A stretch of DNA of 41,427 bases from Catajapyx aquilonaris (lineage: Eukaryota): positions 62,001 through 103,427 of the forward strand of contig JYFJ02000887.1 in NCBI GenBank assembly GCA_000934665.2, written 5' to 3'. Under the pieces are notes generated by a model, which saw nothing but the letters and a program-made list of their open reading frames with translations, ran no database searches and was not told the origin of the DNA. Shown here piece after piece: positions 6,541-37,502 of the stretch. The position numbers were made by a program, and so were the translations under genes. Every line of letters starts with the position of its first letter. Position 1 is the first letter of the stretch.

Positions 6541-6564
6541 ACTCACCTGCAAAATAAGCGAGGG
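6541..6564 (-). other. Candidate recursive splice site (ratchet point), junction 6547|6546
   Basis: Minus strand reads ccctcgcttattttgcAG|GTGAGT: pyrimidine-rich acceptor fused to a perfect donor consensus. Confidence 0.65.
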
Positions 6565-9500
6565 TCTTCTAGGTTTAATGAAGCGCTGCTTAATGTTCCA
6601 CATGCGTCAGTGCTGCACTACCAACGCGGGACATAATAAATTTTGCATTACCCACATTCAGCTGGTGTCCACTGATGAATAACGTGGAAAATGTAGCCTC
6701 GTCGTCGGACAAGTAAGAGGAAATTAGGGCAAAGTCCGCAACGCATGCAAACCCCAAAATGAAACCATTTTTACTTGGAAGCGTCAGGAGAAAATTCCCT
6801 ACTTATAATCCCTGTTTATCGCGGATTTTCGTATTCAGGTCACCGTCGAAATACCCACAGGAAGTACCTCATCAACGAAAAAAAAACGCATGCAATGGCA
6901 CTAAGTTGCACGTTAAGATGCTCATGATGAAATTATTGCAAACATTAACATTAAGCAGGCTGCAAGTAATCCATACTTTAAGGGGACTCCAATTTTTTAT
7001 ATAAAAAACCGTTCATTGTATAGTATATATAGGCACAACTTGCTGACATGGTGCTACAGTAAGGCCTGACTAAACCGTTCCACAGTTCTAGCCTTCACAC
7101 TCATTTCACTTCGTGTAGAAAAAGCATGGTCACGTTACCCCGTTCCGGTGGAAAATGCATTACAGTCCCAAACGCTACAACTATGGGTGAGCTTGATGCA
7201 GGTCCACTGCGACTTGAACATTACATTTAAGCAAGTTATCTCAAACAAGTTCATATTTGAAAGCAGTACTTAGTTATAGATATACCGTTGCACAGTATGA
7301 AACACCATATTCGCTCGGCAGCCAATAGCAAAAAGGGTGTGGGCAGAAGAAGGAGTCGTAATCGAACCTTTTCCTTATTGGATTGCCTGTCTATTTCTGT
7401 TATCCAATGGATTTGTGACAAGGGGCAATTTTGTCGGGAGCTATCATTTTCCACGGTGGGAAAAAAAGTATCGACAGAGAATGGCAGGGCACTCTCGGTG
7501 TAACAACTTTCAGAGTGCCTTTTGCCTCGTGCTTATGCCCGCCTTTTGTCGGTAGTCTTGCTCAAGAACCCAACATAGGTGTCAAATTTTTGTATCGGTC
7601 CCAAGGTAATGGCTCTTCGCCAAATTCCCAGACCGAATCATCGTGGGAGGGAATATGTTGACTAGCCTTCTTGGAGACCCGACTTGACATCTTTGAATTT
7701 TTCTACATGGGTGTTTGCAGATGAAAGCCATGCCTGCTCTACTACCAAAAAATTGCGCTGCTTCAAATCTGCCGTTGACAGTCTGAAGTGGAGAGAGCAA
7801 TGTCTCAAGGCTGCAATGCCAGTGTCAAGTATTCAACTTTCCATTAGGATTAGACTTGTGGAGTAACTAAATTGGCCATAAGAGTTCGTGTGTTCAATTA
7901 AATTTCTCTCGTACTTTTAAAAAAGCTATTAATTTTCATGCTACCATCAATATACAGGCCTACCTGCGCAGTCATACACTGGGAGATAATGTCTGTAACA
8001 GCCGGCAGAAGAAACAGACGCAAAATTTTTGAAGTCCTGGTTACATTGAGAATTGCATTTGCATGTTTTCATGAAAATTGCTCCACTCCATATAAAATGC
8101 CGTCTCCGAAATGACTCACGTGGAACACCAGTCCAATCCGGATTTTCCCTATACAGAGTGAAGCAATAAAATGTATGTTTCCAACCTTGATGCAAACATC
8201 ATCTTTATGGGACTTGCGGGTTAGCAACCCCCTCGGGGTAGAACGAAGCCAACTCCCTCACCCATTTTCAGGCCTTTCTCCGCCACAATAGACACCCGCA
8301 GGCATATGCTAGGCTTCCCTTTTGTCCCCATAGGTATCGCACAAAGAAGCTCAGATGGAAAGTAATGATTGGGAAGCTGAAGGAGCTGGCGGTTCCTTCT
8401 TCCCCCCAATCAGTCTCAAATTGGTAATAACATTGTGTGGTAATGAATATGGGCATGCCGGCACATCCCGCTCCTAAAAATAAATTCCCTCCGGATTCGG
8501 AACAAATTATATCGCACTGCACGGCGACAAGCTGGCAGCCAACTTCATCGCCGACCATCAATATGTACAGAGGCGTGTATTGTTGAGATTATCATAGCAA
8601 AGGGTGTGCCAAATATTAGCATTTCAAGCGCCCATACTTTGTACGCCCACAGTATTACTTCGCGCGCTTTACAATTTTGCCAATAAAAAGCCAAAATATG
8701 TTGGAATAAAAGCGAGCATATATAGGTATTGCCTTCCACTTTGAACACCGAGCCAGGCGAATTATAAAATTTTCCTGCCACTATTAACCAATTACACCAG
8801 GTTTCGAAATCCGCTGCCTATCCTCCAGCAACTATCCCTGGTCCGGCCCTGCAGTGAAACATGTTTAATTGTCTTGGGATTTATTGCTCTCCGAGACGCA
8901 TTCCTCTGTATGCGGGACCTAGGAAGCTGGCTCCTGTCCACTGTCACTCGCAAATTACGATCGTGACCAGCCTAAAAAATGAACGTGAGTTGTAAAATGC
9001 GAATAATTATGCGCGGCCAGTAATACCAGGGATTTAATTTGGTTCTCAATAGTACAATAAAAATATATTAAGGAATACATATAGAATTCTGAGACTTCGT
9101 GGCGCCATAGTTTAAATGCCCTTCCACCATTTAAAGAATCCATTCCTGTGTTCAATGATCTACACCGATCCAATACTTATGCAATGGCCATGTCACCGAG
9201 TTCATCCGAGATTCCTCCTGATTCATTCCCCTCCCCTACAGTGAAGGCGACAATGACGAGGCTCATTTCCTCTCTCTTGTCTGACTGCCCTGTTCCCATC
9301 GACAAAGAGAAGTTGGACGCTCGGACAAGTTTGCACCTCCAACAAGAATCGGCAGTAGGACCAGTGGTTTGTATATGTGTGGGGATGGGAGTTCAACTGG
9401 GAAGTACAAGGGCGCTCAAAAGAGAAGGCGTTCACATGCGTGGATGGTGATGCAAAAGAGCATGAAAGTCGCTTTGTTCCCAACAAAGACCTGACAATAA

Positions 9501-10711
9501 AGGGAACCCGTTCTGGTTTCGATCATCCCTCACGAAAATTAGCTTCTTATTTTGGACCTTTTTTTGCATGCTAATTTCCACTTTTATGAGAATTCCACGG
9601 TACGATACGCCATTTTCAGAAGAATGCCTGGAGACGCTGTTTTTTTCTCTATTTTTTTCTTTCCTATACTCTCCTCCCAGTGTGGTGTTTCGTGATAATA
9701 AAAACCCATGTCATTGTATGATTGGCAAAAAATGCAGTCTAAGCTTTAGAGTTTAGACATTACTCATACAATGTTATGTAATAATTAATATGGTGTATAA
9801 AACTGCACAGCCACGGTTATAAACGTCCAGCCTTTAATAGCCACCAAATATACCGATCAGTACCATCCCATTTGACCCATATTAAGAAAGAGCATGAACC
9901 TCCCGCAGATAGCTCACAGGATCAAAGACCTTAGAAGGACGCATACATTTGGTTCCCTTATCAGTTGTGTATTTGCCGTAACGAAACCCCACTATATTAA
10001 GCCTGTATAACATCCCTAAATATCTCCTGATACTGATGAGTGCGTATATGCAGGACACGCAACTTCAGGCAAGTCTTACTGAATACTTACTTCATCAGTA
10101 TTCTTAGTTCCTGCTTACATTTTTATCACTCCCGGTGACCAGGCCACAGAACCGGTGACTGATGTTAATTTCTAATTTAATATTGAATGAATATTAATCA
10201 ACTTCTCAGCTGCCCTGCAGGTCACATTAGAATTTATAGTCTTGCAAGAAATCTATCGCTATTTGTGTTTCTCTCTCGGTATAGTAAATTAATGAATATG
10301 GTCGCACCATCCATTTTTTTGTAAGCTTTTAATCCACACAACAGCACTTCAAAACCCACAAAAACTGTGACAGCATCTTGATCAACCCTCCATCACTTCT
10401 TCAATAGTGCATGATGGACACGCGGATTTCGAAGTGAGCGGTTCCATGTCCTAGCTGCCAGAATAAACTCCAAATACCAGAAATCCTAACTCAAATCTGG
10501 ACACGCATAATTCCTCCCAGGTGGAAACTCCAGTCTTCGCGCATCTAACACTCATCAAGGCGACACCGAAACTTCAGAGATAGAAACCTAAAACCCACGT
10601 CCACGGAGAAGGATGGCCAGCCCGGTATCCGATGATCTTACTTTCTAAGTGGTCGGGGTCGCAACTCATTCTGTATGTAGCAACACTCGGTGCAGTTCAC
10701 GGACGCTGATT

Positions 10712-10731
10712 GCTTACCTGTAAACAAAAGT
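10712..10731 (-). other. Candidate recursive splice site, junction 10718|10717
   Basis: Minus strand reads acttttgtttacAG|GTAAGC. A second donor AAA|GTAAGA lies 76 nt downstream (10642|10641). Confidence 0.65.
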
Positions 10732-11271
10732 GTATATATACATGCGAGTTCAATGCGAACTCAGCACGTCACACGTCGCATACATCATTGATTGCCGCTC
10801 TCATCTCCTATACGGGCATTATTTTAGGCGACTGCCAGTGTCGAGCGCAATGACACGTTTCATCGTATTAAAAAAAAAAATATATGAAAGAGATTGGATG
10901 GTGCAGGGAGGTGGGATGGGGGGTGAGCTGGTGTCGGTTTCTCATTTCCTTCCAATCGAACTGAATCCATTGTTATGCTAATTGTCGCACAATGCCGTCA
11001 CGCTTTTTACAGCTGTGTATACGGTTATACAGTGAAGCTACTTCGTGCTCCGGTTGCAGCAGTAAAAACGATCAAATCATTAAACTCCCAGCAATCGTGC
11101 GCCAAACATGTGGCATTACAATCCGAATCACTGCATTACAAAATTTACCAAATTGCTCAATTCTATGCCAGCCGATTCACCGGAGGTTTCTTCATGTTTC
11201 CTGTGTATGAGATTATTTTGCGATAACTAATCGAAACAAACGTATCGCCACATATACCGAGATTACCAACA

Positions 11272-11279
11272 TGACGTCA
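11272..11279. promoter_or_regulatory. Full CRE/ATF palindrome TGACGTCA
   Basis: atgacgtcat; exact match. Confidence 0.3.
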
Positions 11280-12132
11280 TACGCTTACTGTACGGCCATC
11301 ATAATAGCAACAACTCCTGAAAGAGTGGTGCTTTCATGCGACAATTTACTATCAGGTTCGCACCCTGAAGTAGTTTTACATCTCAATTACAGATCGGTGA
11401 ATATGGCACCACGAAACAAAAGCTCAATGCAAATATATAACTGGTAACAACAAGATCCGCGGATTAGATATTATGCCTTTGCCAAACAATCGCTTTATAC
11501 GGATAACGAGCTGGAAATTCATATTATTATCTATTACAGCCATCACGGTACCGGCACCATATTTATAATTCCAGAACCGGTATTTTTCCCTACGTGGCAT
11601 AAAACCTCAAAATCACCACTTAAAAGCCCACCTCGGATTTGCACATGACCGTTCAATTGTGACAATGTATTGGCCACCCCCACAGCCTAAACCCGGCTCC
11701 TTCCATCCCCAAAAAAGTGCAGATAAAGGCAGTGGGGCTCCAGCCGTGACCCTCTTGCCTCCCTCCCTGTGGAAGGTTAGACTTCTAGCACCGCGTCACG
11801 ATCTGCACGGCCGGTGAAGCTTCCACCGCGCCCAGCGGTTGCAGCCTTCACCTGCGTGTGAAGTCATTCCCACTCCCTGTGCACCGCCGGGTCCTTACTC
11901 CAAAAGGGGACACATCTCCCCGGGGGGTAACGCCCGCTACACCGCCAAAATCAATCCCTCAACAATTTTTGCACCTGTCCGAGAAGCTGACCGATTGCCC
12001 CACAGGCTCATTGTTTCTCGCAACAAGACATGGAGGGATGCACACATGTGCGAGGGAGGGGGAGAGGAAATTATGTAGAAGTAACGGAGCTGCCGATGCT
12101 GCAGCAGGAAAAGGGTGTGGCACCTCCCCCCT

Positions 12133-12154
12133 ACACACACATACACACACACAT
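12133..12154. repeat. Imperfect (AC)n microsatellite
   Basis: acacacacatacacacacacat. Confidence 0.75.
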
Positions 12155-13340
12155 ACGTGTATCCAGCAGGCGGGGTTCGAACCCATCCCACGTCTTCTTG
12201 TTATTCACCCCGCGGCGGCTCAATTGCTATGCTGTACAACTTGTTTTTATCGGCAGTTTTCGTTTCATGCCGCGGTTTATTTCAGGAGACGTCCTGCGGG
12301 GGTACAAAATCAGGCCGTTTTGTGTGCTGCCACGTTTCAAAAATGCTACACTCATCAGCAATAGTGTCATTACGTGCTTCTTTCATGTGTGTCGCTGGAA
12401 ATAATAGCCGCGTTTTTATTTCGCGGAAAAAAAATTATGTATGTTGATTCATCTCAAAGCTGTTTTACGAGCCTGATTGGCTTTTCCAGTGTTCCAGTGT
12501 GTGGATGACGTGCGATGAAATAATTCGGTAATTTAGCAGGCGGAGTTCCGGAGAAGCAAGTGGCCAACAAGAATACGGAGGGGGTGGAGGAGGAGGGGGG
12601 TTTCGAATCCCGTTACTAACACTCCCCCTTCCCCTTTCCAAACCTGGTCTCCCCCCTACCTCCATTCCGACCCCCCATCCCAGTACGCGGGGGGGTCGAA
12701 ACGTGACTTCCCTTCCGATGGACCGCCAACAAACCCGTTTGGATACCCCAAAACTCATTCACGCCCCTTTGCATCCACCGAGCTCCGGACTCCCCATTTC
12801 CCCCCTTCTTATTCCTCCCCCATAGTATTATCCCAACTGACTTGATGGATCGTGTGTTACGTCCGTGAACGTTGGTTCAACAGAGTGAACCACAAGTCGC
12901 CAAACCGAACGTGCAGACTGTACGTTTAGTCTCCACCACATGCATACACCCAGCGCGCAAGCATCTGCCAATCAACGCTACATCTCACTGCATTAAAAAT
13001 AGGAACCAGCATCAATCATATCGCACCATCACCTCGCAAACATCAACAATAACATAGCGGTAAAATACTCGTGCCGATGATGCCGAATATTACAAAAATG
13101 TACTAATCCAACTCGGTTTAAAAAAGGGGGCTGTCTTAATAATAAATATGTAAATAAATTTATCCCAGCAATCCAGCATGCAACAACAGCAGAAGGTGAT
13201 TGCATGCTTGGAGAAAACCATGCAGCACACACATTTCCTTTCGACGTCTAGCCATTTCGATTGCGTATATCAACACCGCTCCACTCCCTTCTATCTAAAT
13301 AACGCACGCTAGCAAATCGCCTTCAAGTCGTCACGTCTCC

Positions 13341-13348
13341 TGACGTCA
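13341..13348. promoter_or_regulatory. Full CRE/ATF palindrome TGACGTCA
   Basis: Exact match, with an adjacent half site (cgtcac) about 10 bp upstream. Confidence 0.3.
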
Positions 13349-14154
13349 CAATCGCTCTGCTACAGGCCTCGGTTCGCACGTCTCCAGCCAAATGATTTCT
13401 TCCACTCGGCTGGACACCATATAAACGGACAGAAATCCCATCTTCGCCAGTGCAGAATCCCAACTTCTGTTACGGCAACCACTCCTCAGCCTGGCCAAGA
13501 ACCGGTTCCCCCACAAAAACGGGTGGACGGGGGGATAAACGGCAACAATCCGCAGGTACTACGGTATATTTCGCTTGTACACTTTTTTTCCGACATATTC
13601 GGCAGAAATTCTGTCAACAAGCGATGGGAAGGAGCCCTGGCAAGGGGGAAAGAGGTCAACCATGGATTGCGTCAAAAGGTGGAGGAGGAGGTAGTGGAGG
13701 GGAAATATGGGTGACGGTTGCGTGAACGGAGCGGGGGGAGGGGGGGGGGAATCTGTTGGAAGGGTTCAGAAACCCCAGGCTCAAGGTAGAACAGCAGCTG
13801 TTGCCATTCTGTGCTGTGGAAACCGGCATGCCATATAATTCTACCACTCGGTAAATATGTGCACAGCAGCCGCTCTATCCCGCAGCCATAATGAAGCAGC
13901 ACACCCCGTGGGATAAGACTTCTAAGCGCGAAAAGGTGCGCAAAATGCAAATGGCCCCAGATCATTTACATCCACCTTTTGTGGCGGGGTTGTGTTCGGC
14001 GTTACACAATGCGGCTCTCCGTAGCTAATATTACACTCCAAGGAGTGCATGATGTACCCAATTGCGCAGAGGGGGCCGGAGAGCGGGGCAGTGGTGGTGG
14101 TTCCGGTGCCCCATTTTTTTTTTATTAAAAAAAAAGGATGCGCCAACAATGCCA

Positions 14155-14173
14155 GGGGCGGGCGTGACGTCAC
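14155..14173. promoter_or_regulatory. GC box abutting a full CRE palindrome
   Basis: aggggcgggcgTGACGTCAc. Confidence 0.35.
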
Positions 14174-17100
14174 CTGGCCCCACCTCGTGCATGTTACTCC
14201 AGCGTTGCACCGCGTCCTTGCTCGGACATTCACCTACAGAAGCGGAGAGCAAGAGACCCCCATCGGAGGGCACCGACTGACTGACTTGCTAGGACTCTCT
14301 CTCTTTGGCCCGCATGTGTGTTGCCAGGCATACCGGTACAACATCATCGCTGGAGATACACTCAGGCCTGAGAGCCTTCGCCAAACGAGAGGCCCCGGCT
14401 TGCTGTTTGCCTTGAGAGATGCCGGTCTGACCACAAGGACTCAATTGCCGTGCTGTACACTGCACAACTACACTAAAGACTGGCATTGCCCAATAGGGTA
14501 CGATATATTGCGGCTGTACTTGCTGCAAAAAACGCTCGGGAAGATTGATAAACAAGAACTGGCTGTAAAAGGTGGCTGCCAGCTTTTCGCATAACTGATA
14601 ATGATGGCCTATATGGCATCCATATAAAGGCATGTACAGGGTGATGTCGAAATTTGATGCGAGCTCAGGATCCAAACCCATTTCTAGAAAACTGGCATAA
14701 CTCAGGTCTGTCTGTATAACGGATCATGGACACAGTGGAAACTTGTCTATTACAAATTTTTTGATTGGTTCCGGTGAAGCATTTTCAGCCCATTTCAGTA
14801 GCCTATAAAACTGAAACCCGTTCAGTCAGAAAATTCCCGCGGAAAGGAGCCATTCCGTCTTTGAAAGGTTTCATTGTAGCAATTATAGGTGGTACTGTAC
14901 CCATTTCCTCGGATTTTTTCAAGATTTTACAAAATAACGCAGTTTGGCACAACTCATGAAGCATGAAGGGTTCCCCTGCCTAATTAAAAAAGCGTCTCGA
15001 GAGCAGTAGTGGAACTTGGTGTCTTTTCTACCATGGTCACATCCGGTTGTTAGCTTCGAATAGAGCATTAACTTATCGACTGGGGCGGGGAAAGTACACA
15101 GAATGGAGGCAAACATTACCTCACAGCCCCCAGCTCATGCTACTCATACATTGGGGCTAATCGGCACTTCAGGGTATGACAATAACAAAGTTTTGTGGCC
15201 GCCACGAGTAGAAATCTCGCCAGCATTTCCATTAAAAGGTCGGCCATCCCCGTCGCATGTAAACTTTTTTATGTGACTTACTAACTGCATCAAGGTAGCT
15301 AATTTAGGCGACAAACAATCCGTCCTAGAATTTCCCATTGTCGAACCTGAATTTCTGCACGCATCATTCTTCATACGCGACAAGGTAAGGCGATTTGGCA
15401 TTCGTTGCGGCTAATTAGCATTAACGAGCACCATCTTATACCTCACGTGCACCTAAAGGTTCCCGCCTGCGACCAGTTTCCACCCCGGAGGCCCTCAAAA
15501 AAAGGAATGCCCAACACAAAATTTCCCGTCCATGCTGGTCACGACCCCGAAGCATAGTGATACAAAGAGAGGCCTAAATAGCAGTCTAGCCCTAATCACT
15601 TTTGGCAGAAATAAACCGCACTTGTCCCGGGAGTCCCGAGGAGGCATTTTCAACACGAAAAGGCGTAACACTGTTCTCGAGCTGGAGTAAGGTCCAATGA
15701 ACGCAGTGATGAAGGGCCATCCATTTCTTGCGTAAGGCCACTCTTGCTTGTTAGTGCAACCAAGTGTTACTTGCACGCCTCGCCAAACACTCGCCAAACT
15801 CAGACAACTCTTCTTCATAATTCTGAGGGAGCAATTCTCCGCTGGTGAACCAAAAAAATGCGGGCGACCCCCAAATAGCCCCAAGGGACACATGGGGAGA
15901 GCTGGGTGGAAGGAGGAAATAATCTTTGTCGAAAATTCGAGCCAGTAATTGACATTTAGGCAGATAATGACGGCATTGTTTCCAGCTGGTTGAGCACGTT
16001 GCGTGCGCGGCAGGGGCCCTCATGCCACGACTCGTTACTCTGCCAGGAAAGCAGTGGGCCAGGAATGCACTTGTCTCATCACGTTCCCTTCCATCGTATA
16101 TTTTATCCGCCGGAATTATTGTGTCATCTCCTCCGGCCGGTGCCGAATTTGAATGACGTGCGTTTTGAACACGCGTACGGCTCCTACCGCCTCATTCCCA
16201 TGGGTTTCGCAAGCCATGGCCGCCAAACTGCACCCTTTTACTTTGTAATACTTTTTTTGTGTGTATATTACTGTGCGGCACCGAGGGGTGGAAAAAATAA
16301 TAATCGGTAGTTTGGAAATCTGTACTGCACATATAAGGTATAATAGAGTGGAACTCAACCGAGAAAAGAAAAAAAAAGTGGAAATCCGCAATTGGAAGTG
16401 TCGATTACTCCAACTCATTTTCGTGCCCGTCCATGCTAGAGATACGGCTTTTTTGTCCTATGAATAGTAGGCTATATATACAGTACATCAGTGAGAGAAT
16501 AACAACCTTATTTAGCAGTTCTCAAAGGCAAAAAAAAATCTTGCTTCACATCATGCTCGGTCGATTGCAATAATCAACACCCTTATTCCTCCCATGCAAA
16601 ATGAAGTTTGTTGCCAGTTCGGTTGGGCCTCACATGCAACCCACCTTGGTTGCTTTCTTTTCCCCGCGCAACACGGACGAATTGAAGTAGTGGTGGTAGT
16701 GAGGGTGCGGAGTACTGGCAAGGAACATAAGGGCCTTGGCCTACTATACCCACCAATTGGGTTCCAGCACCGCTGCATGGCTAGGCACACAGACACTGCC
16801 TACTGACCATTGCTAACGCATACAAAAGCATACCGTCGCATTCCATTTTTTCCCCCACCCCGCACTATCCAGCACGTGAGCTCATGACAACTAAAAAAAA
16901 CTATGCGACTTTTTTCCTGAGAAAGTGCGCCACGCAACTCTCACCTGTTGCATAAATGGGAAGGAGGCGGTCCCTTCAAATCCCCCGTAGGAAGTCGTAA
17001 TTATTGGCATTGTTGTGGATGAGTCTGCATATGCACGCGGTACAATATGCGATCCCAACCATGCTGCGAGGTTAAAAAACGCACAAAAAGTTGCCTATTC

Positions 17101-19000: not shown

Positions 19001-19014
19001 CCACCAGATGGCAC
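19001..19014 (+). promoter_or_regulatory. CTCF core consensus site
   Basis: CCACCAGATGGCAC matches CCRSYAGRKGGCRS at every position. Confidence 0.45.
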
Positions 19015-27000: not shown

Positions 27001-27028
27001 CCCCCNCCTCCCCCCCCCCCCCCCCCCC
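27001..27028. repeat. Poly-C run (contains N; assembly-uncertain)
   Basis: cccccncctccccccccccccccccccc. Confidence 0.7.
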
Positions 27029-27292: not shown

Positions 27293-27329
27293 CCCCCCCC
27301 NCCCCCCCCCCCCCCCCCCCTTTTTTTTT
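27293..27329. repeat. Poly-C run followed by T run (contains N)
   Basis: Directly visible homopolymers. Confidence 0.7.
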
Positions 27330-28018: not shown

Positions 28019-28026
28019 TGACGTCA
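28019..28026. promoter_or_regulatory. Full CRE/ATF palindrome TGACGTCA
   Basis: Exact match. Confidence 0.25.
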
Positions 28027-29104
28027 GTCCCCAGGTTTGGGGCAACCACCTCTCCTTCGCACTGATATCCAAAACGCCCACGCAAAATTCGTTTCAAATC
28101 GGCCCTTTTATATTTTGTGTTTCCCAATAACCACTCCCCAGCAGCATGTGCTTCTATGGCCGACACAGAGGGCGATAACAACATTACTCGGTTCACAGAG
28201 GTCGGAGAGGCTTTGCACGAGGATGGATCAAACCCAAATATTTTTCAGAAGCTTCCACGAAGCGGAAGAGAATACAGTACGTCTTATTTGCAACGGCAAA
28301 AGATGAAAACGAAAGGGTTTCCAGAATCGTCATGAAAGCTTTCCAGGTGCATATGATGTATCCACAAACAAAAACTATAACTCATAGGACTTATTTCGAA
28401 TCAGGACGTTAACATCAAAGTTTCGGTTAGTTTTTATAATGGCAAGGGTTGGAGTGAAATTCCGCATTTGAACTGCTCCTGGAAGTTCGTCGTAACCAAT
28501 GGTTGATGGCAAAGATACCTGCGGGGAACTTTGGGAATATACTGGGTGATATCGAGACAGGCAGAGAAGGTGGAGCTACAGTTTATGTTCACATGTGTTG
28601 CACACCAAGCATCAGCAACTTAAGTTTAAGCCATTCTTAGCATTATATGATGCATAATTGTTTATGAGACTTCGATACCTATAAGACGGTATATGCACCT
28701 GCAAAATCTGCTGCGTCAAAATTGTCATGTATAATTTATAAGCTATAATTTTCTGGGTGTTTGCTTATTACGCTTAAATAAATTATAAATACCGCTACCT
28801 CATTACCAAGTCTCCACGTCTGCTTCTAGTAACATTTGGCTATCACTCTCAATTTATTTCACGTTTGACACTGCTGACTCAAAGAATTTCAATATACTGT
28901 AGCATTATAATTATATTATAGGCCTACATATAAAAAATAACAAGGGAAATGAAAATAGACAAAATATTTACTGCAAAATATTTAAAATTCTATGACACGC
29001 ATATAGTCATATTTTAAATGTTTGAGCTTTTGCCCTTATTTCTCAGGTGAAATGGTACACGTCTCACTATAACATAAATGGTTGTCCAGTGATACACCTG
29101 TGGC

Positions 29105-29129
29105 CATAGATAACCCTTTAATATCTATG
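29105..29129. mobile_element. 25-bp micro-element with 8-bp TIRs and an 8-bp target-site duplication (hAT-like geometry)
   Basis: CCTGTGGC|CATAGATA-accctttaa-TATCTATG|CCTGTGGT; flanks match at 7 of 8 bp. Confidence 0.55.
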
Positions 29130-29191
29130 CCTGTGGTATCTTCGGGGATTCTCTTTTATTCTTTCTTGCTCAATGGTGAGGGCCTTTGATA

Positions 29192-29361
29192 GTGGAAGGA
29201 AACGAAGGAAACGAGAGAACCCCGATAAAACCCACGCGTACACGGAGAAAATCTATCGAACCTCTTCCCTCATGAGAATCCTTTTCCTATAACCCGGGCA
29301 TCGAACTCGGGACTGCACAGGTGGAAGGCTATATGACGATAATCACTGAACCACCCCGCCC
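29192..29361 (-). mobile_element. Degenerate tRNA-derived SINE with V-domain-like core
   Basis: Minus strand: A-box-like TGGTTCAGTGA near the 5' end, B-box-like GAGTTCGATGCC within a cccgag/cccggg stem, then TTCTCCGTGTACGCGTGGGTTTTATCGGGGTTCTCTCGTTTCCTT..CCAC, resembling the V-SINE core (GCGTGGGTTTCCTCCGGGTGCTCCGGTTTCCTCCCAC). Includes an internal 9-bp tandem duplication. Confidence 0.7.
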
Positions 29362-32300
29362 TATATAACATAGCAATCAGAAAAGTTGTTATATTCAACG
29401 TTTTAAGTAGCAGCAAATTTAACTGCAGCATAATTCCTAATAGGTTTAACGAAGTTCCTACCCTTCACAGGGTGGTCAGAAACTCCCACATTTGGTTCAG
29501 CCTGGCGATTTCTCAGCCAATTCTAAACCCAAAATATTCGATATCATTCTCACAGCAGACTTACTTAAGTACGGATGCAACGAATTGGAATTGTAACCAG
29601 TGTAAGTGCAGGATGTATCCTGCAGCAATATTAGTCCTATCACTTGTAATTCTAATGGAAACAAATAAAAAATTGCTTCCACAGCCGTGCAGCAAAAAAA
29701 TGTGCGTATGCACATATGCAAACAAATGTTATGGCAGTATTTGTTTTGGTCGTTTTTGACTAGCATGTGCAGGCAATTTGGCAATTGTCCAAATATGGGT
29801 AGGTCTATAAATTAGTAGTGACGTTCTGGACAATGCACAAATCATACCATGCATAAGTAACAACACACACCTCTATTTTTAGGCAGCGGAAATACATGTC
29901 AAAGACACACCTGTCACTTTTGCAACTCTGCGACAGAAAACACACGTGAGAGATGGGCATCGGCCACGTGCCCCGAAGACGCCACTCACCCAAAATCCAT
30001 GGAATCGATCTCTTCATAGAGCCAGTTGACATGGTGCGGCGTACCCATTCCTGGTCACACTTCCTTTATGTACCCGCACACCTCCGCAAGACTAGACCGA
30101 CGTGCTCTATGCTCACTGAGCTAATAGTCGGATCTGACACGAACAAACCGTCTCCTGTCTTCGTCAAGAGGCTCAAAAAGGATACTCGCCCACATGCAGC
30201 ACCTGTGCCAAGCAAACCCTTTCAATTCCACCCTCCTACTGATGTTCCTGTATACATCTCGACATTCCCAGTCCTCAACCCCCCACCCTCCTCCACTGCC
30301 CCGCATATCACCACGACCTATTTTCCGACCGCAACTGTATGCAATTGTCACTATCTGATCAGGTCGATTTGGTGCCTCGTGCTTCTGCCTGTCGGGAGAG
30401 GAGTCCTTTAAACGACAGTGGCCTACTATTTTTTTTTTCTACCCTTTCCTATATATGCTTACCCCATCCCCTGTGAATTATCGAGGTCGTTATCTGAATA
30501 GCTATGTTCCACGTAATATGTATACCGGCGTATATCAAACCGTGGCAATGAAATCAGGTACAGGCTGCCTTCCGATTCTACTTCCGAGTTTTGTTGACAA
30601 ACAAATGTTGCAACCGAACCTGCGGTACTTCTACTGTACTGTCCTTTTAAAAATCCTACATAGAACCGGACAGCCTAATGTTTAACACAAAAATTCTAAT
30701 CACGTCACCCACTTTGGTGAACTGCCGGCGACCGCCGCCCATCTCCATCGGAGACAGCATCACCTCTAAGGTGGCCTCAAAAGGACCTCTTCTTCTCATC
30801 ACTCCTTCCCTCTGCCTCCTACCCCCACCTCCTCCCTCAAGGCCCAACCGAAGGGGACCTCCAATTAGACCCCTTTTCCCAGCATCCTATCAGGTAAACA
30901 AGCCTTCTCTTTGAATACCCGCCTGGGTTGCCTCAAATGAGCTACTTAGTGGGTGGGTGGAAAGTGAGGATGAGGGGCGGTGGTGGGGAGTGGTCGACTT
31001 CAAGCAGCCAAATTCAATTGCTTCCGAGAAAATTTGAATAATAAGTGTGGCAGCGATTAAGTTCCGCTCACAGAAAAGGAGACCGCTTGATTGCGCAACC
31101 GTTTCCTGCTCCGGCATTACGGGCCCGACTGACTGTGCCTCTAAATGCACCTATTGTTGCTGCAGAGTTAAAGTTCAACGACAAGAGAGAATTAGGCAGA
31201 AACTGGCAGACCCCCTGCCGAGGCACTTCATGACAAATGCCGGCTCGTTATAACCGTGTTTGCATTAGTGCTTGATTCGATACTCCCCTCGAGCCAAGTC
31301 ATCCACAAGCGCGTCCAGGTTCATTTGCAAACCTGTAATCAATGGCATGTAAACCAAAATAATTGACTGATATTGTCACTCTGCCACACCTACATTTTAC
31401 AGGAGAGAAACATTTGTAATAAGGATCCTGCAACAGAACAGTGGTCATGAAAGCCTTGGTACGACCCCATTCCTGATATCCCACTGCCCTTGCCCCCTTC
31501 CCAAGCCGCTCTGCCAGGAGCCGACATCAAAATTCAGCGACGGAAGGAATCAGGGATGGAAATGGGTGCTAATGCAAACGCCAAGCCAACAGCCCAGCCT
31601 TGGAGGAGCTATACCACCCTTCCAAACTCTCTCTTTCTCCCAATCAATCAAGCTCTCAAGCACCACATTAAAAAGTCTGGCAGGAGCTAAACTGTTCCTC
31701 GCCGAAACAACATGTCGCAACCGTTTCACACTAACTCATGGATCTAGCATCTACAGTAGAACAGCCACCATAAGGTTAACTACTCGGTCATAGACAACAA
31801 ATTCATTCATTATATTATTCTTCATTATGGCTTGTTTTTTTATCCATCTCGATGACATGCATCCAATTGGGCGGTAATGGAGCATGCAGAATACACTAGG
31901 GGCGCCGCTTTGCTATGGATGAGGAGGGGTTAAGGGAGCAGGCAAACCCAAAGATCATTATGTCCGTCCCAGCTCATTAATTCCGTACAGACCGCGGGGA
32001 CTCAGGGCAAAAATCAATGGGGATGTCCTTATCTGCTCGTTTAAAAATCGAGAGGAGGGTCACACAACCCGAGTCCTCCATGTCAGATGACCCTCTCTCT
32101 CTCTCTTTTTAAAGCCTGTACTTTGTGCAGAATTGGTGCAATAGGCCCCAGCCGGGTTGGAAATGCTGGAAATATGGACACAAAAGAAGTGCGGGACTCG
32201 ACTTCGATTCCCACAGTGGGAGTCAGACTACAGCCATAGAGATTCGACGGGAAGCCGCCAAGTCGAAACTGAATCAAGAGAACAAAAGCGGTCGCAACCA

Positions 32301-33571
32301 TTCATTCCTCCTCCTCTTCTCCAGTTCTCCCACCCTCTTTTTCCCGCGAGATGAAATTCCAGCTCCGTCATATCTATAATGCAGCAGGTAAATCCTACAG
32401 TACAGCAGAAGAGCAAACTGTGCACGGCACATCGTTACGGTCAAGAATTAATCAGTACCACTGGGGAAATTAGATTTCAAATAGACTTCAAACTGTATTA
32501 CTTATATTCCAATTCATTCCCCGAAAACTCCCACTGTTCACGCTAATTTCCCCACGCAGTGTAGTTTTAATTATCTACAGTATAAAAATTAGTTAATTAC
32601 TACCGTGATAAAGCGTATAATACGCCCGTCAACCTAAGTTCAGCCTAGCATTCCTGATCACAATTAAAATTCACTTCTCCAAGACGCGATAAAAGTACAG
32701 TACATTACTTACAGAATAAGTTCAAACGATCAATTTGAAAACTCTGAAATAACTTTCTGTTACTGAAATTACTTTTCACGCGCCTGACAAGTGCAAAACC
32801 AACCTGCCAAAAGCATAACACCCTAAATATCGTTTCAAGTCACATAGAAGGGGCCGTCTAATCGTCTCTCTGTTACGTGTCCCAAGTCTCTTGTCACAAG
32901 AAGTCCTCTTGATTTTGGAGCACGTCGACAGTAATTAGCGCCTCATTGGCAAAGCAGCGGCTTCAGTCACATCTTCCTCCCCCGCACCCACAGAGCGCCC
33001 ACTCTTTGAAGTTTTTTAANCCCCCGCCTTTTTTTTCAACTACTCCTATTTTCTCCCCCTTCTCTTTTCACATTTCGCCAGGCGAAAACCAGACTCTTCC
33101 TTCCCTAATTTTATCAGCGAGGCTTTGAAGTTCAGCAGAACTATGTTGGGCCAAGATGTTCCTCCGTCGCTACTTTGCTCGTCCGTAAAACCATACACTT
33201 TCAAACTGCACATAACATGAAACTGGAATCAATTTTAAGCAAAGGTGACCGCTCTTGTTATGACAAAACACGATTAAGAATCGTGCAGATTCGAGTCATG
33301 CACAGAGCATGTAATGCATTTCAGGTCATGCAGTACTAGATTAAAACTGCATAATTTCGCATGACATCAGAAGCAAAAAATGTAGCAAGCATGCCGTATA
33401 AGCGCTGATGAACCCATTGTTTCCTAATCTAACTGCAATTACCATCGAAATAGTCGAGATAATGCTGGTGTCACTCAATCGGCTGGATTATGGTCTCCGA
33501 GATCCGCACTAGGTGGGAAAACGCACATGAATTACGCAGCACAATAATGGTAGGGGAAAAAATAAATAAAG

Positions 33572-33580
33572 AAAAAAAAA
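33572..33580 (-). terminator. Pol III oligo-T terminator of the tRNA-like unit
   Basis: T9 on the minus strand, 27 nt downstream of the cloverleaf. Confidence 0.45.
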
Positions 33581-33607
33581 CAGGGCAGGAAAGGTGGGAA
33601 ATTCGTG

Positions 33608-33680
33608 AGCCCTCTCCGGGACTCGAACCCGGCGCCTTCGGCACGTACTGCCGACGCTCTGCCACCTGAGCTACGAGAGC
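33608..33680 (-). tRNA. tRNA-like cloverleaf, nominal anticodon TAC (Val), probably a pseudo-tRNA or SINE head
   Basis: GCTCTCG TA GCTC AGGTGGCA GAGC G TCGGC AGTACGT GCCGA AGGCG CCGGG TTCGAGT CCCGG AGAGGGC T: perfect D, anticodon and T stems and intact A/B boxes, but A32/G33 instead of Y32/U33, G48, and a G7:A66 mismatch. Confidence 0.7.
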
Positions 33681-36600
33681 GTTTTTATTCTCGGTACTGG
33701 GATGGTCCAAGGAATGTTATCAAATCATAACTCGGGATAATAAAAGAACTGGATGAGGTTCGGGTAATACCGGCCCTTGGTGTCTAAATCAGCGAAATAA
33801 TAGCTTCCGGGGAGTTGGCTAGGACCGGAGCTGGGGATGGGGGCTTGGGAAGGAAGCAACAGGTGGTTCCAGCATCTGGTCCAGAAGAGAGGCTGATGGG
33901 TGGGCGGATCACGTTTCCTATCCCGTTCACACCACACGGCGCCGATTTCATAAACGGAACATGAAGCGCCCAAAATTTGGAGGTTGTGTATACGAACACA
34001 ACTCTCAGATTACATACATGTAACTACAGCCTTGATAAACCGGGAGCGTACTTTTAAAATGCCCCCAACTATTTCTAGAATCTACAAGCAGTGTAAAAAT
34101 AATCTCCCCTTCCGCTCATATAGTCGTGGCCGTACAGGTGCACGCTAGCATGTCCGAATAAAGAATGAACCATCTCCCCCTGGTTCCTCCTCCCTGATAC
34201 CCCCTTCCCTGCTTTACACCCGCACAAATGCACGTGCACGCGACAGTCAACTGGCCCGCAACACCCTTCCAGTCCAGGCTTTATGCCTGACTACTGGCCT
34301 GTTTCCATGGGAACCCCGAGGAAAAGGCATGCAGGCCTCCCCAGCACCCCCCTCCACCAAATAAAAACTTTATATCAAAACCTTTTAAAAAAAAGGAGGC
34401 GAATTGGAAAGTTCGTTACAGTCCTCCCTCAGGAGTTCGCTCATTGCGACAAGTTGTCCCGCAAGAGCGGCTCCGGATACCGGTTACACCCCCTTCTAAA
34501 ATGATTCTCTTCCCTCGGCAGACTCCATAAGCTGATTAAAGAACCTGCTGAGTGCTCAAACTCCCGGATAAGTGGACATCAATTGCAATTCAGCCCGGAA
34601 CATGTCACCTCGACGCTTCTCTCCGGGGATCTCCTTGCGACTTTGCACAACAACCATTTATTTACCGCCGAGCGGGGCGCTACAAAACTTCCCGAGTTCG
34701 CGGTGCATACAACGTGTTGGCGACCTCCCATTTTCTGGAAGCCCGGATCCTCCAATTAATTAGCGAGGAAACCCTTGCGCTACTCATTATCTTACATATG
34801 GAGGGTATAGCTACAAAAATGCTGGCTAACGAATGTTGGAATCAATTCAATAGCACTTTCTCATCCGCGAAAATTTTCGGGGGCGACGACGTATACGTAT
34901 AGGAACTTGGCGGACACAATCCCTCATCACTTACACAACTTTCCCATTTAACCATTCGCGAAAATGAGCCGCGCAACACAATTCATCGCCCGCCTTCATT
35001 ATCCCTCTTCAACCCGGCGGTAAATTTTCGTACACTGAATTTATAACTGAATAACTTTTTCGCTTGTTTCTGGGCGCTGAGAGAACGGTTAGAACTTTCC
35101 TGGATGACAAGTCGGTACATTTCCATGGGTTTTAGTTTCTGTCGCGTTTTCAATCGAAAAGTTGGCCGTCACCCTCGGATTTAACTTTATACGCGATACA
35201 CTCTAAAATGCTATATATACACTCCATACCGACAGCTATATGCTTTGAACATGCCTATAAGTTACTTGTAAATCCGGCACTGTTGATGTCGAATATGTTA
35301 TACTGTAGGCTATATATGATGGCCATTAATTCCGCATAATAGGAACCTTTAAGTAACGAATCCTTCACAAATTCCACAACCGAAATGATTTATAGCAACT
35401 TTGGCAGGAAATGCCATTAAAAAGATAACCCATTGTCAGTAATCGCGACGTCAACCAATGACTGCGCTTATGACTAAGCTATATACACGTATAGACTTCA
35501 TCACCATCTCGGAATCAGATCCATCCTAAAATGCATTATTTTATCCGAATGACTGTTACAGAGAGGAATAGCAGAAATGTTTGTTTCAGCACAAAAGCAA
35601 GGCTTTCAGACGAACACGACTTCGCTGCATTTACACAGACTTCAAGACAGTTCTGTCATGAAAAGAGAGAAATCTTTTGTAAATATATCGACTGGAGTTC
35701 AAACCATATATACTGTATTGCAGTTCGGCTCATTCAAAGCTATCGGGCTATGTGCACAAGGAAATGGCGTTTCAGCACGAATACAACTTTGAGCATATAA
35801 CATTATGTTCATATGTTCAAATGTCAAGGTTAAATACAAGCGTACAAAGGACTTAATATTTCGACCCTCAATGCCCTGCACTATGCACACTTGCTTTGAT
35901 TTCAGTCGGAGTATTCCATTTGTAGGAGTCCTGCCAGAGACAAATGACTATAGGGTATGCAATCAAAACAGAGGGATGTGCTGGGACACCAGGTACATAA
36001 AAAATTGATTTCGCTTCCACTTGGACAAACACCACCATTTAAAAAAAAACAACAACAAGATGGCATGTTCCAGAGTGGGGGGAGGATGTTGAAATAAAAA
36101 TTAACTGTATTTGCATCTTGTATACAGTAGTATATTCAGAGATTAATAAATTCCAAATATAAAATCCGCCCCGACTACAATTTACGTGCAGAGCAACTTT
36201 TTAAACCCCACTTTTCGATTTTACAAATAAAATATTTACGAGTGTGAAACAAAAGCAAATGTAGATGTGAATTATGCAGTATCAACGCAGCCAACCTTTT
36301 CCACCCCATCCACATGAGAGCACCTCCACCGACCTGCCTGCATGTCGTAGCACAAAACTCTGGTCACTGCGATTAAATATTGGGACAAGGGCTCAGCAGG
36401 ATCATCTACACAGTTATTTGGTTCTCCCACAGGGTCTATATATGCAGACACCATGTTCCGATTTGCTCATAAAGAGATTCCAGAAAAAAAAGAGAGTTCG
36501 CCTCCACTGCAAATACCCTACTCCCTTCGCATACATTGCATCCAGCAGCATTCCGCCACATTACACACAATCGCCTACGCCAGGGATTCGTAGACTGATC

Positions 36601-37186
36601 CGTCCCATAAGCTCATGGTACAGAACCATCTCGTGCAAGCCTGCACTGCGTCACTTGGTCACCAGTTTGTGGATCGACGCTTATTTGTCGCGCATATGTA
36701 GAGTTCGTGGTATCACGGGAATTGTGCTGCTCCTAAATCAAGTCGACAATGGCAATTATAATATGCATGGGATTTGTGCTTTTGATGCGGAACTGACTAA
36801 TTTGCGTCCAGAAGTTGGGCTAGACTCGTGGCAAAGTCCCCCGTGACATTCCGTTCGCATTTCATTGGGTCACTTCTGAACACACTTAAAAATGCATAAG
36901 TTGCTCGAACGGGGCACGTGGATTTTTTTACGCCTCAAATAGATCACACGGTAAAAAAACTTATTCCATTACCAACTTCAAAGAAGCCTGTACCGATATA
37001 GAGGATGCCCTTCACGTGTCACTTCATTCTGTACACATCAATTCTTATAGGGCAAGCAGAGTGCATCACAATTTATGTGCACTCTCACACTGTACATGTA
37101 TGCAATCTCTTGTGTATTTATTTCTTTACAAAGACCATGCATGTGCTGCATGGCGAGGGCGCTTCTTTCCAACACAATGGTTCATT

Positions 37187-37437
37187 TGAAGGGGTCGGTG
37201 CAATACTGCCATAACCCTCCCAAACCTGATTTTGAGAAAACTGCAGTTGAAAGTTTGAGAGGCCATATACATCCCATATACCATGTGACTTATTTCATTT
37301 GATTTCTCAGTGACCGATGGCAGAAACTGCACAATTTCAATGGATTTTATTAGATACATGAATGTAGTACATGGAAGTGTGCTTAACTCAATTTGTGTCA
37401 TTTGGTGGGTTAGGGCGGTATTGCACCGACCCCTTCA
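37187..37437. mobile_element. Non-autonomous DNA transposon (MITE), ~250 bp, ~38-bp imperfect TIRs
   Basis: Left end tgaaggggtcggtgcaatactgccataaccctcccaaa (37187-37224); right end reverse-complements to tgaaggggtcggtgcaataccgccctaacccaccaaa (37401-37437). AT-rich non-coding interior; TSD not cleanly resolved. Confidence 0.8.
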
Positions 37438-37470
37438 TTTATTGAAGCACTTTCATAATAGTGAACAAGC

Positions 37471-37502
37471 ACCTACCTGTAGAAGAAAGATAAGAAGAGA
37501 GC
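37471..37502 (-). other. Strong candidate recursive splice site, junction 37477|37476
   Basis: Minus strand reads gctctcttcttatctttcttctacAG|GTAGGT: over 20 nt of pyrimidine tract, CAG, near-consensus donor. Confidence 0.65.

What the first reader, a model, noticed from the sequence alone, without database searches (positions are those of the whole stretch)
6541..37502. Series of minus-strand recursive-splicing ratchet points subdividing a giant intron
Seen: five fused acceptor-donor sites on one strand (37477 ...ttctacAG|GTAGGT; 24695 ...ttctctAG|GTAAGT; 18048 ...ttttacAG|GTGAGT; 10718 ...gtttacAG|GTAAGC; 6547 ...ttttgcAG|GTGAGT), spaced about 12.8, 6.6, 7.3 and 4.2 kb. Manual count of YAG|GTRAG is 7 minus vs 1 plus (about 2.5 per strand expected at equal base frequencies), and most of the minus hits also carry pyrimidine tracts. 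Established: this is the architecture of Drosophila ratchet points (e.g. in Ubx) and of vertebrate RS sites in very long introns. Inference: this intron is removed stepwise. The V-type SINE suggests the host is not Drosophila, so this could document dense recursive splicing in a lineage where it is little described.
Basis: partly seen in the sequence, partly recalled or inferred. Interest (0 to 1): 0.85.

Follow-up and report, generated by a model that had tools for sequence, protein, structure and literature searches.

The report
Likely recursive splice sites in long intron
One strand of this gene-free 41-kb stretch carries a series of fused "end-of-intron/start-of-intron" signals far more often than chance allows, the known signature of a very long intron removed piece by piece, but no RNA data could be found to prove it.

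Summary
The bare octamer excess is modest once base skew is modelled: 7 against 2.2-3.2 expected, P 0.007-0.05.

The joint signal is strong. Sites with both a pyrimidine tract and a good donor number 4-6 on the minus strand and 0 on the plus strand. About 0.1-0.8 are expected from Markov simulations, block shuffles, offset controls and permutation.

- Strongest sites: 37476 and 24694.
- Good sites: 10717 and 6546.
- Weak site: 18047, which has a poor tract.
- Extra candidates: 16944 and 14233.

The window has no recognisable coding ORF and no internal repeats.

Stepwise (recursive) splicing of a minus-strand intron is the best reading, but it rests on inference. No RNA runs, no genome and no related sequences were available. 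CpG content argues against a vertebrate host. The lineage is unknown and the "V-SINE" claim was not verified. Such ratchet-point enrichment is already described in flies and predicted in other invertebrates, so this is a new member of a known kind.

The parts
37469..37506 (-). Candidate ratchet point 1: ...tctcttcttatctttcttctacag|GTAGGT, junction between 37477 and 37476
   Evidence: sequence; best acceptor score of 2479 AG on the minus strand; 15 of 16 pyrimidines, CT at -6/-5, and no downstream donor within 200 nt; passes the simple joint criterion. The donor half scores 2.9 bits, just under my 3-bit cut.
24687..24724 (-). Candidate ratchet point 2: ...ttcttgtttcttttcttctctag|GTAAGT, junction 24695/24694
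   Evidence: the top joint score, 10.9 + 5.4 bits; the maximum joint score in simulations averages about 6, against 16.4 observed; third-best acceptor; 15 of 16 pyrimidines, CT at -6/-5; branch-like TTAAT and CTTAT with the A at -24 and -30.
24653..24694 (-). Possible 36-nt cryptic RS-exon (24694..24659) closed by the donor ttg|GTGAGT at 24658
   Evidence: donor at +36; 36 nt, open in frame 0. A downstream donor like this occurs by chance 0.57 times per 194 nt, so this is only suggestive.
18040..18077 (-). Candidate ratchet point 3 (weak acceptor): ...gcggtggattttacag|GTGAGT, junction 18048/18047
   Evidence: joint-best donor on the minus strand, 8.1 bits; only 7 of 16 pyrimidines, TT at -6/-5. 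It fails every tract cut.
16937..16974 (-).
   Evidence: 3.9 and 3.1 bits. (12 of 16 pyrimidines, CA at -6/-5)..
14226..14263 (-). Extra, weaker candidate: ...ctcttgctctccgcttctgtag|GTGAAT, junction 14234/14233
   Evidence: acceptor 6.4 bits. (passes the simple criterion). (sequence). The donor lacks G at +5.
10710..10747 (-). Candidate ratchet point 4: ...cacttttgtttacag|GTAAGC, junction 10718/10717
   Evidence: 4.2 and 3.6 bits. (11 of 16 pyrimidines, TT at -6/-5, downstream donor aaa|GTAAGA at +76)..
6539..6576 (-). Candidate ratchet point 5: ...ccctcgcttattttgcag|GTGAGT, junction 6547/6546
   Evidence: 4.5 and 4.6 bits. (joint-best donor, 8.1 bits). (12 of 16 pyrimidines, TT at -6/-5). (passes even the 4-of-4 donor cut).
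1..41427 (-). Inferred minus-strand transcription unit (intron) spanning the whole window
   Evidence: G>C on minus in 20 of 20 2-kb bins and T>A in 17 of 20. AATAAA 18 on minus against 46 on plus; 0 of 288 ORFs of at least 60 aa has a credible Pfam match. This part is an inference, not an observation.

Best explanation
The window lies inside a very long intron of a gene transcribed from the minus strand, in a weakly methylated and probably invertebrate genome. That intron carries a series of zero-length-exon ratchet points.

The inferred mechanism runs as follows. The upstream exon is first spliced to the acceptor at 37476. The junction then regenerates a donor (exon|GTAGGT). That donor is spliced to the next acceptor at 24694, and so on through 18047 (and/or 16944 and 14233), 10717 and 6546. 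The intron is thus removed in segments of about 1-13 kb.

What is shown here is the existence, strand specificity and statistical excess of the juxtaposed sites. Intron status, order of use and actual splicing are inferred.
For: **(1) Sites present.** All five sites are present as described.

**(2) Scoring test.** I used a rough position-weight scoring: tract at -20..-5, Y at -3, and +3..+6 RAGT.
- 4 of 177 minus-strand AGGT score above 3 bits on both halves, against 0 of 132 on plus.
- Order-1 and order-3 Markov simulations give means of 0.10-0.12, and 0 of 400 reach 4.

**(3) Independence test from the real sequence.**
- 10 of the 177 AGGT have a strong acceptor half, 9 a strong donor half, and 4 both.
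- 0.11 are expected from rates outside AGGT (Poisson P = 6e-6). Fisher's test within AGGT gives P = 6e-4.

**(4) Offset control.** Strong acceptor and strong donor coincide 4 times at offset 0. The mean over 140 other offsets is 0.12 and the maximum is 1. Permuting donor scores among AGGT sites reaches the observed top-5 statistic in 0 of 20000 trials.

**(5) PWM-free criterion.** The rule was at least 11 of 16 pyrimidines, Y at -3, AG|GT, and at least 3 of 4 matches to RAGT.
- It finds 6 sites on minus and 0 on plus.
- Other offsets average 0.47.
- Block shuffles average 0.76-0.85 with a maximum of 5, and 0 of 300 reach 6.

**(6) Ranks.** 37476 and 24694 are the best and third-best of 2479 acceptor-like AG on minus. 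6 of the 8 best donor-like sites on minus are these candidates.

**(7) Tract scarcity.** The minus strand has fewer long pyrimidine tracts than plus (16 against 45 of at least 12 nt), so tract abundance does not explain the excess.

**(8) Not repeat copies.** The site flanks share nothing beyond the motif, and there are no in-window repeats of 40 nt or more.

**(9) Strand of transcription.** T>A on minus and AATAAA 18 on minus against 46 on plus.

**(10) Published parallel.** Sense/antisense RP-site ratios are 21.7 in fly large introns and 4-8 or more in mosquito, beetle, bee and sea urchin, against 1.5 or less in vertebrates (PMC2773006, section 6). Fly segments average 9.1 kb (PMC6110457 passages) or 18 kb with a minimum of 2.6 kb (10.1101/006163).
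Against: - **No direct evidence of transcription or splicing.** No RNA run was listed, no genome or annotation is held, and no related sequence was found, so conservation is untested.
- **G>C skew points the other way for invertebrates.** The putative sense strand has G>C at about 11%. Passages of PMC5786239 say invertebrate (fly, worm) introns have C>G on the coding strand, with G>C typical of vertebrates. The G/C skew therefore does not fit a fly-like host and leaves orientation resting on T>A, AATAAA and the sites themselves.
- **The fly TT rule is only partly met.** Only 3 of 7 candidates have TT at -6/-5, against 196 of 197 in fly. The two strongest sites have CT.
- **Two sites are individually weak.** 18047 has a poor tract and 14233 a weak donor.
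- **Downstream cryptic-exon donors are not enriched.** 4 of 6 sites have one within 200 nt, against 0.57 per site expected by chance.
- **Branch-point-like motifs are no more frequent than background**.
- **My scoring matrices are recalled approximations,** not trained models.
- **Selection effect.** The window was flagged out of a very large scan because of this pattern, so per-window P values overstate significance.
Confidence: 0.6

Rival explanations
1. The sites are edges of real or poison exons rather than zero-length ratchet points. They could be expressed RS-exons, like the Ubx microexons that begin with a donor sequence. They could also be dual-specificity sites used as acceptor in one isoform and donor in another. 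In that case they shape isoforms rather than merely subdividing an intron.
For: - 24694 is followed by a GTGAGT donor at +36. This would give a 36-nt, frame-preserving segment that is open in frame 0.
- 10717 has GTAAGA at +76.
- Fly ratchet points are reported always to involve a short cryptic exon, and a minority are expressed (PMC8605326 passages).
- The dual-specificity concept is recalled, not read.
Against: - 0 of 288 ORFs of at least 60 aa has a credible Pfam match.
- The putative exons at 10717 and 6546 are 76 and 73 nt and out of frame. Only one of three frames of the 10717 exon is open, and two of three for 6546.
- Downstream donors are no more frequent than background.
- This rival overlaps mechanistically with the best explanation, because it is still recursive-type splicing.
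Confidence: 0.17
2. Chance and composition. The G- and T-rich minus strand simply yields more AGGTRAG, a few of these fall behind pyrimidine runs, and the window was picked from many because of it.
For: - The octamer excess alone is modest, P = 0.007-0.05, and the strand split is not significant after composition, P = 0.14.
- AGGTRA and AGGT show no excess.
- The loosest control (block shuffle, simple criterion) gives a mean of 0.8 and a maximum of 5 against 6 observed.
- The scan covered a very large number of windows.
Against: The joint tests are far from chance.
- 0 of 400 Markov simulations reach the observed count.
- 0 of 20000 permutations reach the observed top-5 statistic.
- Offset 0 gives 4 coincidences, against a maximum of 1 at 140 other offsets.
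- Poisson P is 6e-6 to 2.5e-4.
- The minus strand has fewer pyrimidine tracts than plus.
- The best and third-best acceptor-like sites in 41 kb both sit directly on donors.
Confidence: 0.1
3. The sites are ordinary donors of several alternative non-coding first exons (multiple promoters of one long gene) or of exons of a long non-coding RNA. The upstream pyrimidine tracts are incidental.
For: 6 of the 8 best donor-like sites on the minus strand are these sites. Long developmental genes often have several promoters (general knowledge, recalled).
Against: - It does not explain why the donors sit exactly behind YAG and the strongest pyrimidine tracts in the window.
- No promoter evidence was sought or found.
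Confidence: 0.06
4. The region is intergenic or belongs to a plus-strand gene, and the minus-strand motifs are never transcribed.
For: C>G on the plus strand is the direction reported for the coding strand of fly and worm introns (PMC5786239 passages). No gene model is available.
Against: - The plus strand has A>T, opposite to the T>A reported for coding strands generally.
- AATAAA is 46 on plus against 30 expected.
- The plus strand has 0 juxtaposed sites.
- Unused motifs would not be expected to show the joint enrichment.
Confidence: 0.07

Closest known systems
Drosophila zero-nucleotide ratchet points (Ubx, kuz, osp, luna; Duff et al. preprint 10.1101/006163, read whole; Pai et al. PMC6110457, passages)
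   Same: - Juxtaposed acceptor and donor around AG|GT with a prominent pyrimidine tract.
- Several sites per long intron. Fly has one to six, and luna has five in 108 kb.
- Kilobase-scale segments.
- Strong sense-strand specificity.
- A repeat-poor, non-coding setting.
   Different: - Density here is higher: five to seven candidates in 31 kb, with segments of 1.1-12.8 kb. Fly segments average 9.1 or 18 kb.
- Only 3 of 7 candidates have TT at -6/-5, against 196 of 197 in fly.
- The putative sense strand has G>C, whereas fly introns have C>G.
- There is no RNA or conservation evidence here.
- None of the five site-specific 14-mers occurs in the fly recursive-site table. The sixth, generic TTTTGCAGGTGAGT, occurs 4 times; the two passages shown had different flanks.
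Computationally predicted RP-sites in large introns of mosquito, honey bee, flour beetle and sea urchin (Shepard et al. 2009, PMC2773006; passages and section 6)
   Same: Same kind of evidence, namely motif enrichment on the intron strand over its complement. The genome type is also the same: invertebrate and poor in interspersed repeats.
   Different: Their densities are 0.5-1.0 per 100 kb at an 80% score cut. Here the density is about 10-14 per 100 kb at my own, looser, cut, against 0.27 expected. The thresholds are not directly comparable.
Vertebrate recursive splice sites with RS-exons in long neuronal genes (Sibley et al. 2015, recalled; summarised in PMC8605326 passages)
   Same: A regenerated donor after the first splicing step, and use of a downstream donor to define a cryptic exon.
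   Different: - Vertebrate long introns show almost no sense/antisense RP-site enrichment, with a ratio of 1.5 or less.
- Only a handful of fully suppressed intronic sites are known.
- This window's CpG observed/expected of 0.69-0.97 in every 2-kb bin does not look like bulk vertebrate DNA.

Membership tests
Drosophila-type intronic ratchet points (zero-nucleotide recursive splice sites) | [quoted passage not shown] | tested here: met
   The feature is met by 37476, 24694, 10717, 6546 and 16944. 18047 has a weak tract and 14233 a weak donor.
Drosophila-type intronic ratchet points (zero-nucleotide recursive splice sites) | Strong excess on the intron (sense) strand over the complementary strand and over chance | tested here: met
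   4:0 and 6:0 minus against plus, with expectations of 0.1-0.8. That minus is the sense strand is itself inferred.
Drosophila-type intronic ratchet points (zero-nucleotide recursive splice sites) | TT at positions -6/-5 (196 of 197 fly sites; preprint 10.1101/006163) | tested here: not met
   3 of 7 candidates have TT (18047, 10717, 6546). 37476, 24694 and 14233 have CT, and 16944 has CA. This rule may be specific to flies.
Drosophila-type intronic ratchet points (zero-nucleotide recursive splice sites) | Location inside a long intron (over 11 kb in fly) of an expressed gene | not testable with these tools
   No genome or annotation is held. Indirect support only: 0 of 288 ORFs with a credible Pfam match, plus skew and AATAAA asymmetry.
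Drosophila-type intronic ratchet points (zero-nucleotide recursive splice sites) | Exon-to-ratchet-point junction reads, saw-tooth read density, recursive lariats | not testable with these tools
Drosophila-type intronic ratchet points (zero-nucleotide recursive splice sites) | Evolutionary conservation of the site above that of other AGGT in the intron | not testable with these tools
   No related sequence was found.
Drosophila-type intronic ratchet points (zero-nucleotide recursive splice sites) | Short cryptic RS-exon (about 50 nt) closed by a downstream donor (PMC8605326 passages) | tested here: inconclusive
   Donors lie at +36 (24694), +76 (10717), +73 and weak (6546), and +177 (18047). 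37476 has none. Background is 0.57 per 194 nt.
Vertebrate recursive splice sites (RS-exon type) | Host is a vertebrate long gene, with bulk-methylated, CpG-depleted DNA rich in interspersed repeats | tested here: not met
   CpG observed/expected is 0.81 overall and 0.69-0.97 in all 20 bins. There are no in-window repeats of 40 nt or more. The expected vertebrate CpG level is recalled. The global methylation of vertebrates comes from the PMC4776710 abstract, seen in the listing.

The most novel reading that the evidence does not exclude
A non-drosophilid animal, possibly not an insect, subdivides a long intron with ratchet points several-fold more densely than the fly average. It would have up to seven sites in 31 kb and segments as short as about 1-4 kb. 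It would use a relaxed acceptor rule (CT as well as TT at -6/-5), on a sense strand with vertebrate-like G>C skew. If so, this would be one of the first concrete multi-site recursive introns outside Drosophila and vertebrates.
Probability: 0.3. Interest if true: 0.6.

Novelty: new member of a known kind. Interest (0 to 1): 0.45.

Why it matters
Recursive splicing has been demonstrated experimentally mainly in Drosophila and at a few vertebrate sites. For other invertebrates the papers I saw offer genome-wide motif statistics (PMC2773006) and one predicted locust site tested only by U2AF65 binding (PMC8892266 passages).

A specific intron with five to seven well-formed sites gives exact junctions that RT-PCR or total RNA-seq can test in the source organism. 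It would also show whether the fly TT rule and segment sizes generalise. If the host turns out to be a drosophilid or a close relative, the finding is routine.

Tried and rejected
- **Whole genome.** None is held.
- **Rfam.** Nothing at gathering thresholds. In E-value mode there was one tRNA-like hit and four sub-threshold miRNA hits, taken as chance.
- **Pfam.** I scanned all 288 stop-to-stop ORFs of at least 60 aa. The only hit was a proline-run match to PRIMA1, below its cut-off.
- **Protein search.** The 163-aa ORF spanning 18047 gave 231 word-sharing candidates, none significant and not even a self hit. ORF-level conservation was therefore abandoned.
- **Exact-pattern scans.** The 24694 site in metagenome contigs gave 0. 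The tRNA-like element in metagenome contigs gave 0 and in prokaryote genome contigs gave 0.
- **Earlier findings of this scan.** Searches by place, words and sequence returned nothing.
- **Fly recursive-site table (Pai et al. supplement).** I searched six 14-mers from the window. Only the generic TTTTGCAGGTGAGT occurs, 4 times; the two passages shown had different flanks. The sites are not listed D. melanogaster S2-cell sites.
- **Branch-point motifs.** Not informative.
- **Candidate exon 39218..39127.** No frame is open through the whole 92 nt.
- **Papers not held.** Touchon et al. 2004 and Burnette et al. 2005. Their content is cited only second-hand.
- **Repeat-family origin of the sites.** Rejected.
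- **Lineage.** It could not be identified.

Full report
**1. Observation**

The five minus-strand sites are in the sequence exactly as quoted:
- ...ttcttctacAG|GTAGGT, with the G of GT at 37476
- ...ttcttctctAG|GTAAGT, at 24694
- ...gattttacAG|GTGAGT, at 18047
- ...ttgtttacAG|GTAAGC, at 10717
- ...ttattttgcAG|GTGAGT, at 6546

The spacings are 12782, 6647, 7330 and 4171 bases. The manual YAGGTRAG count is exact, with 7 on minus and 1 on plus.

The window is strand-skewed. The plus strand has A 11752, T 10799, C 10492 and G 8380, and its GC skew is negative in all 20 two-kb bins. Strand-specific Markov models therefore expect 2.2-3.2 octamers on minus and 1.1-1.8 on plus. On its own the octamer excess is modest, P = 0.007-0.047. 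The 7:1 strand split is not significant once composition is allowed for, P = 0.14. Shorter cores show no excess.

**2. The joint signal**

The real question is whether good acceptors and good donors coincide. I scored every AGGT with rough matrices. The frequencies were recalled, not trained. They cover pyrimidines at -20..-5, Y at -3, and RAGT at +3..+6.

*Scoring and simulations.*
- On minus, 4 of 177 AGGT exceed 3 bits on both halves (24694, 6546, 10717, 16944). On plus, 0 of 132 do.
- 37476 misses only because GTAGGT scores 2.9 on the donor half.
- Order-1 and order-3 Markov simulations give a mean of 0.10-0.12, and 0 of 400 reach 4.

*Independence test from the real sequence.*
- 10 AGGT have a strong acceptor half, 9 a strong donor half, and 4 both.
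- 0.11 are expected from rates outside AGGT (Poisson P = 6e-6). Fisher's test within AGGT gives P = 6e-4.

*Offset and permutation controls.*
- Sliding the donor relative to the acceptor gives 4 coincidences at offset 0. The mean is 0.12 and the maximum 1 at 140 other offsets.
- Permuting donor scores among AGGT reaches the observed top-5 statistic in 0 of 20000 trials. The plus strand shows nothing, P = 0.41-0.59.

*A criterion free of my matrices.* The rule was at least 11 of 16 pyrimidines, Y at -3, AG|GT, and at least 3 of 4 matches to RAGT.
- It gives 6 sites on minus (37476, 24694, 16944, 14233, 10717, 6546) and 0 on plus.
- Other offsets average 0.47.
- Shuffles within 50-, 200- or 1000-base blocks average 0.76-0.85 with a maximum of 5, and 0 of 300 reach 6.

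*Ranks and tract abundance.*
- 37476 and 24694 are the first- and third-ranked acceptor-like sites among 2479 AG on minus.
- 6 of the 8 best donor-like sites on minus are these candidates.
- The minus strand has fewer long pyrimidine tracts than plus (16 against 45), so tract abundance is not the cause.

*Not repeat copies.* The flanks of the sites share nothing beyond the motif (alignment A1). There are no in-window repeats of 40 nt or more.

*Caveat.* The window was chosen from a very large scan because of this pattern, so per-window probabilities overstate significance. I still put chance at only about 0.1.

**3. Individual sites**

| Site | Pyrimidines, -20..-5 | Bases at -6/-5 | Donor | Rating |
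|---|---|---|---|---|
| 37476 | 15 of 16 | CT | GTAGGT | strongest |
| 24694 | 15 of 16 | CT | GTAAGT | strongest |
| 10717 | 11 of 16 | TT | GTAAGC | good |
| 6546 | 12 of 16 | TT | GTGAGT | good |
| 18047 | 7 of 16 | TT | GTGAGT, excellent | poor tract |
| 16944 | 12 of 16 | CA | GTGAGA | extra candidate |
| 14233 | at least 12 of 16 | CT | GTGAAT | extra candidate, weak donor |

The octamer hits at 26958 and 5478 have purine-rich upstream sequence and fail even a 9-of-16 cut.

Downstream donors that could close a cryptic RS-exon lie at +36 (24694, GTGAGT), +76 (10717), +73 and weak (6546), and +177 (18047). 37476 has none. Such donors occur 0.57 times per 194 nt by chance, so this is inconclusive. 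Branch-point-like motifs are not informative.

**4. Surroundings**

- None of the 288 stop-to-stop ORFs of at least 60 aa has a credible Pfam match.
- Rfam finds only a tRNA-like element at 33608-33680 on minus, at 40.8 bits. ARAGORN calls it Val-TAC.
- CpG observed/expected is 0.81 overall and 0.69-0.97 in every 2-kb bin. Vertebrate genomes are globally and heavily methylated and invertebrate genomes sparsely so (PMC4776710 abstract, seen in the listing). The typical CpG depletion of vertebrates is recalled. On this basis the host is probably not a vertebrate.

**5. Strand of transcription**

- The minus strand has T>A in 17 of 20 bins and G>C in 20 of 20.
- Passages of PMC5786239 state that T exceeds A on the coding strand generally, while G is in excess in vertebrates and C in invertebrates (fly, worm).
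- T>A therefore supports minus as the sense strand. G>C does not fit a fly-like host. This cuts against a drosophilid origin and keeps the orientation inferential.
- AATAAA is 18 on minus (20.4 expected) against 46 on plus (30.1 expected). This fits avoidance of premature polyadenylation on a transcribed minus strand, P = 0.03 after composition.

**6. Mechanism**

The best reading is recursive splicing of a minus-strand intron longer than the window. Each site first acts as acceptor for the upstream exon. The regenerated exon|GTRAGT donor then engages the next site.

The sites and their non-random, strand-specific juxtaposition are shown. Intron status, order of use and usage are inferred. I put this at 0.6.

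The rivals are:
- exon-edge or dual-specificity sites, a recursive-type variant (0.17)
- chance plus selection of the window (0.10)
- a plus-strand or intergenic location (0.07)
- donors of alternative first exons (0.06)

**7. Comparison with what is known**

- In fly, 197 ratchet points lie in 130 introns, with one to six per intron. Luna has five in 108 kb. Segments run from 2.6 to 63.6 kb with a mean of 18 kb. 196 of 197 sites have TT at -6/-5 (preprint 10.1101/006163, whole text).
- A later study found several-fold more sites, with a mean segment of 9.1 kb (PMC6110457 passages).
- RP-site sense/antisense ratios are 21.7 in fly, far above 10 in mosquito, 8.0 in beetle, 8.2 in sea urchin and 4.0 in bee. 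They are 0.9-1.5 in eight vertebrates (PMC2773006, section 6).
- The window's 4:0 to 6:0 split and its repeat-poor character match the invertebrate pattern.
- Its density is about 10-14 per 100 kb at my thresholds, against 0.27 expected. This is higher than the fly average of 2.2 per 100 kb, but the thresholds differ.
- It fails the fly TT rule at the two best sites.
- Five of the six 14-mers tried from the window do not occur in the fly S2-cell recursive-site table. The generic TTTTGCAGGTGAGT occurs 4 times; the two passages shown had different flanks.
- A predicted locust site with U2AF65 binding (PMC8892266 passages) and a lungfish survey (abstract only) show that the idea has already been pursued outside flies.

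**8. Verdict**

This is a new member of a known kind and of moderate interest. It would rise if the host proves to be a lineage with no experimental recursive splicing, and fall if it is a drosophilid.

Supplements of bioRxiv preprints were closed, and Burnette et al. 2005 and Touchon et al. 2004 were not held. Their matrices and per-species skews could not be checked.

Noticed in passing
window 33560-33680 (-): A tRNA-like element (Rfam tRNA 40.8 bits; ARAGORN calls it Val-TAC) is followed about 40 nt downstream by a run of T that would end a Pol III transcript. By my reading of the printed sequence, the anticodon loop has G where tRNAs have U33. It could be a tRNA pseudogene, a small Pol III gene or a lone SINE head. 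There is no second copy in the window, and it was not shown to be a V-SINE.
   Followed up: partly
window 1-41427: There is an unusually strong and uniform strand skew. The minus strand has G>C by about 11% in 20 of 20 two-kb bins and T>A in 17 of 20. G>C on the putative sense strand is the vertebrate direction, yet CpG observed/expected of 0.81 is not vertebrate-like. The combination is unexplained.
   Followed up: partly
window 1-41427: The poly(A)-signal hexamer AATAAA occurs 46 times on plus (30 expected) and 18 times on minus (20 expected). Pyrimidine tracts of at least 12 nt number 45 on plus and 16 on minus.
   Followed up: partly
window 27006, 27301, 33020, 41083: Four single N bases. 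Those at 27006 and 27301 lie inside long C runs, the one at 41083 at the end of an AT dinucleotide run, and the one at 33020 beside short T and C runs. They look like unresolved base calls in low-complexity sequence.
   Followed up: no
window 23383-23405 (-): A good acceptor (ctctgctctcag|) at 23405 and one of the best donors in the window (aag|GTAAGG at 23382) bracket a 23-nt segment. It could be a microexon or a chance pairing. Such pairs at offsets 1-100 are no commoner than expected.
   Followed up: partly
window 24659-24694 (-): The segment between ratchet candidate 24694 and the GTGAGT donor at 24658 is 36 nt, a multiple of three, and open in frame 0. It could in principle be an expressed RS-exon like the Ubx microexons.
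   Followed up: partly
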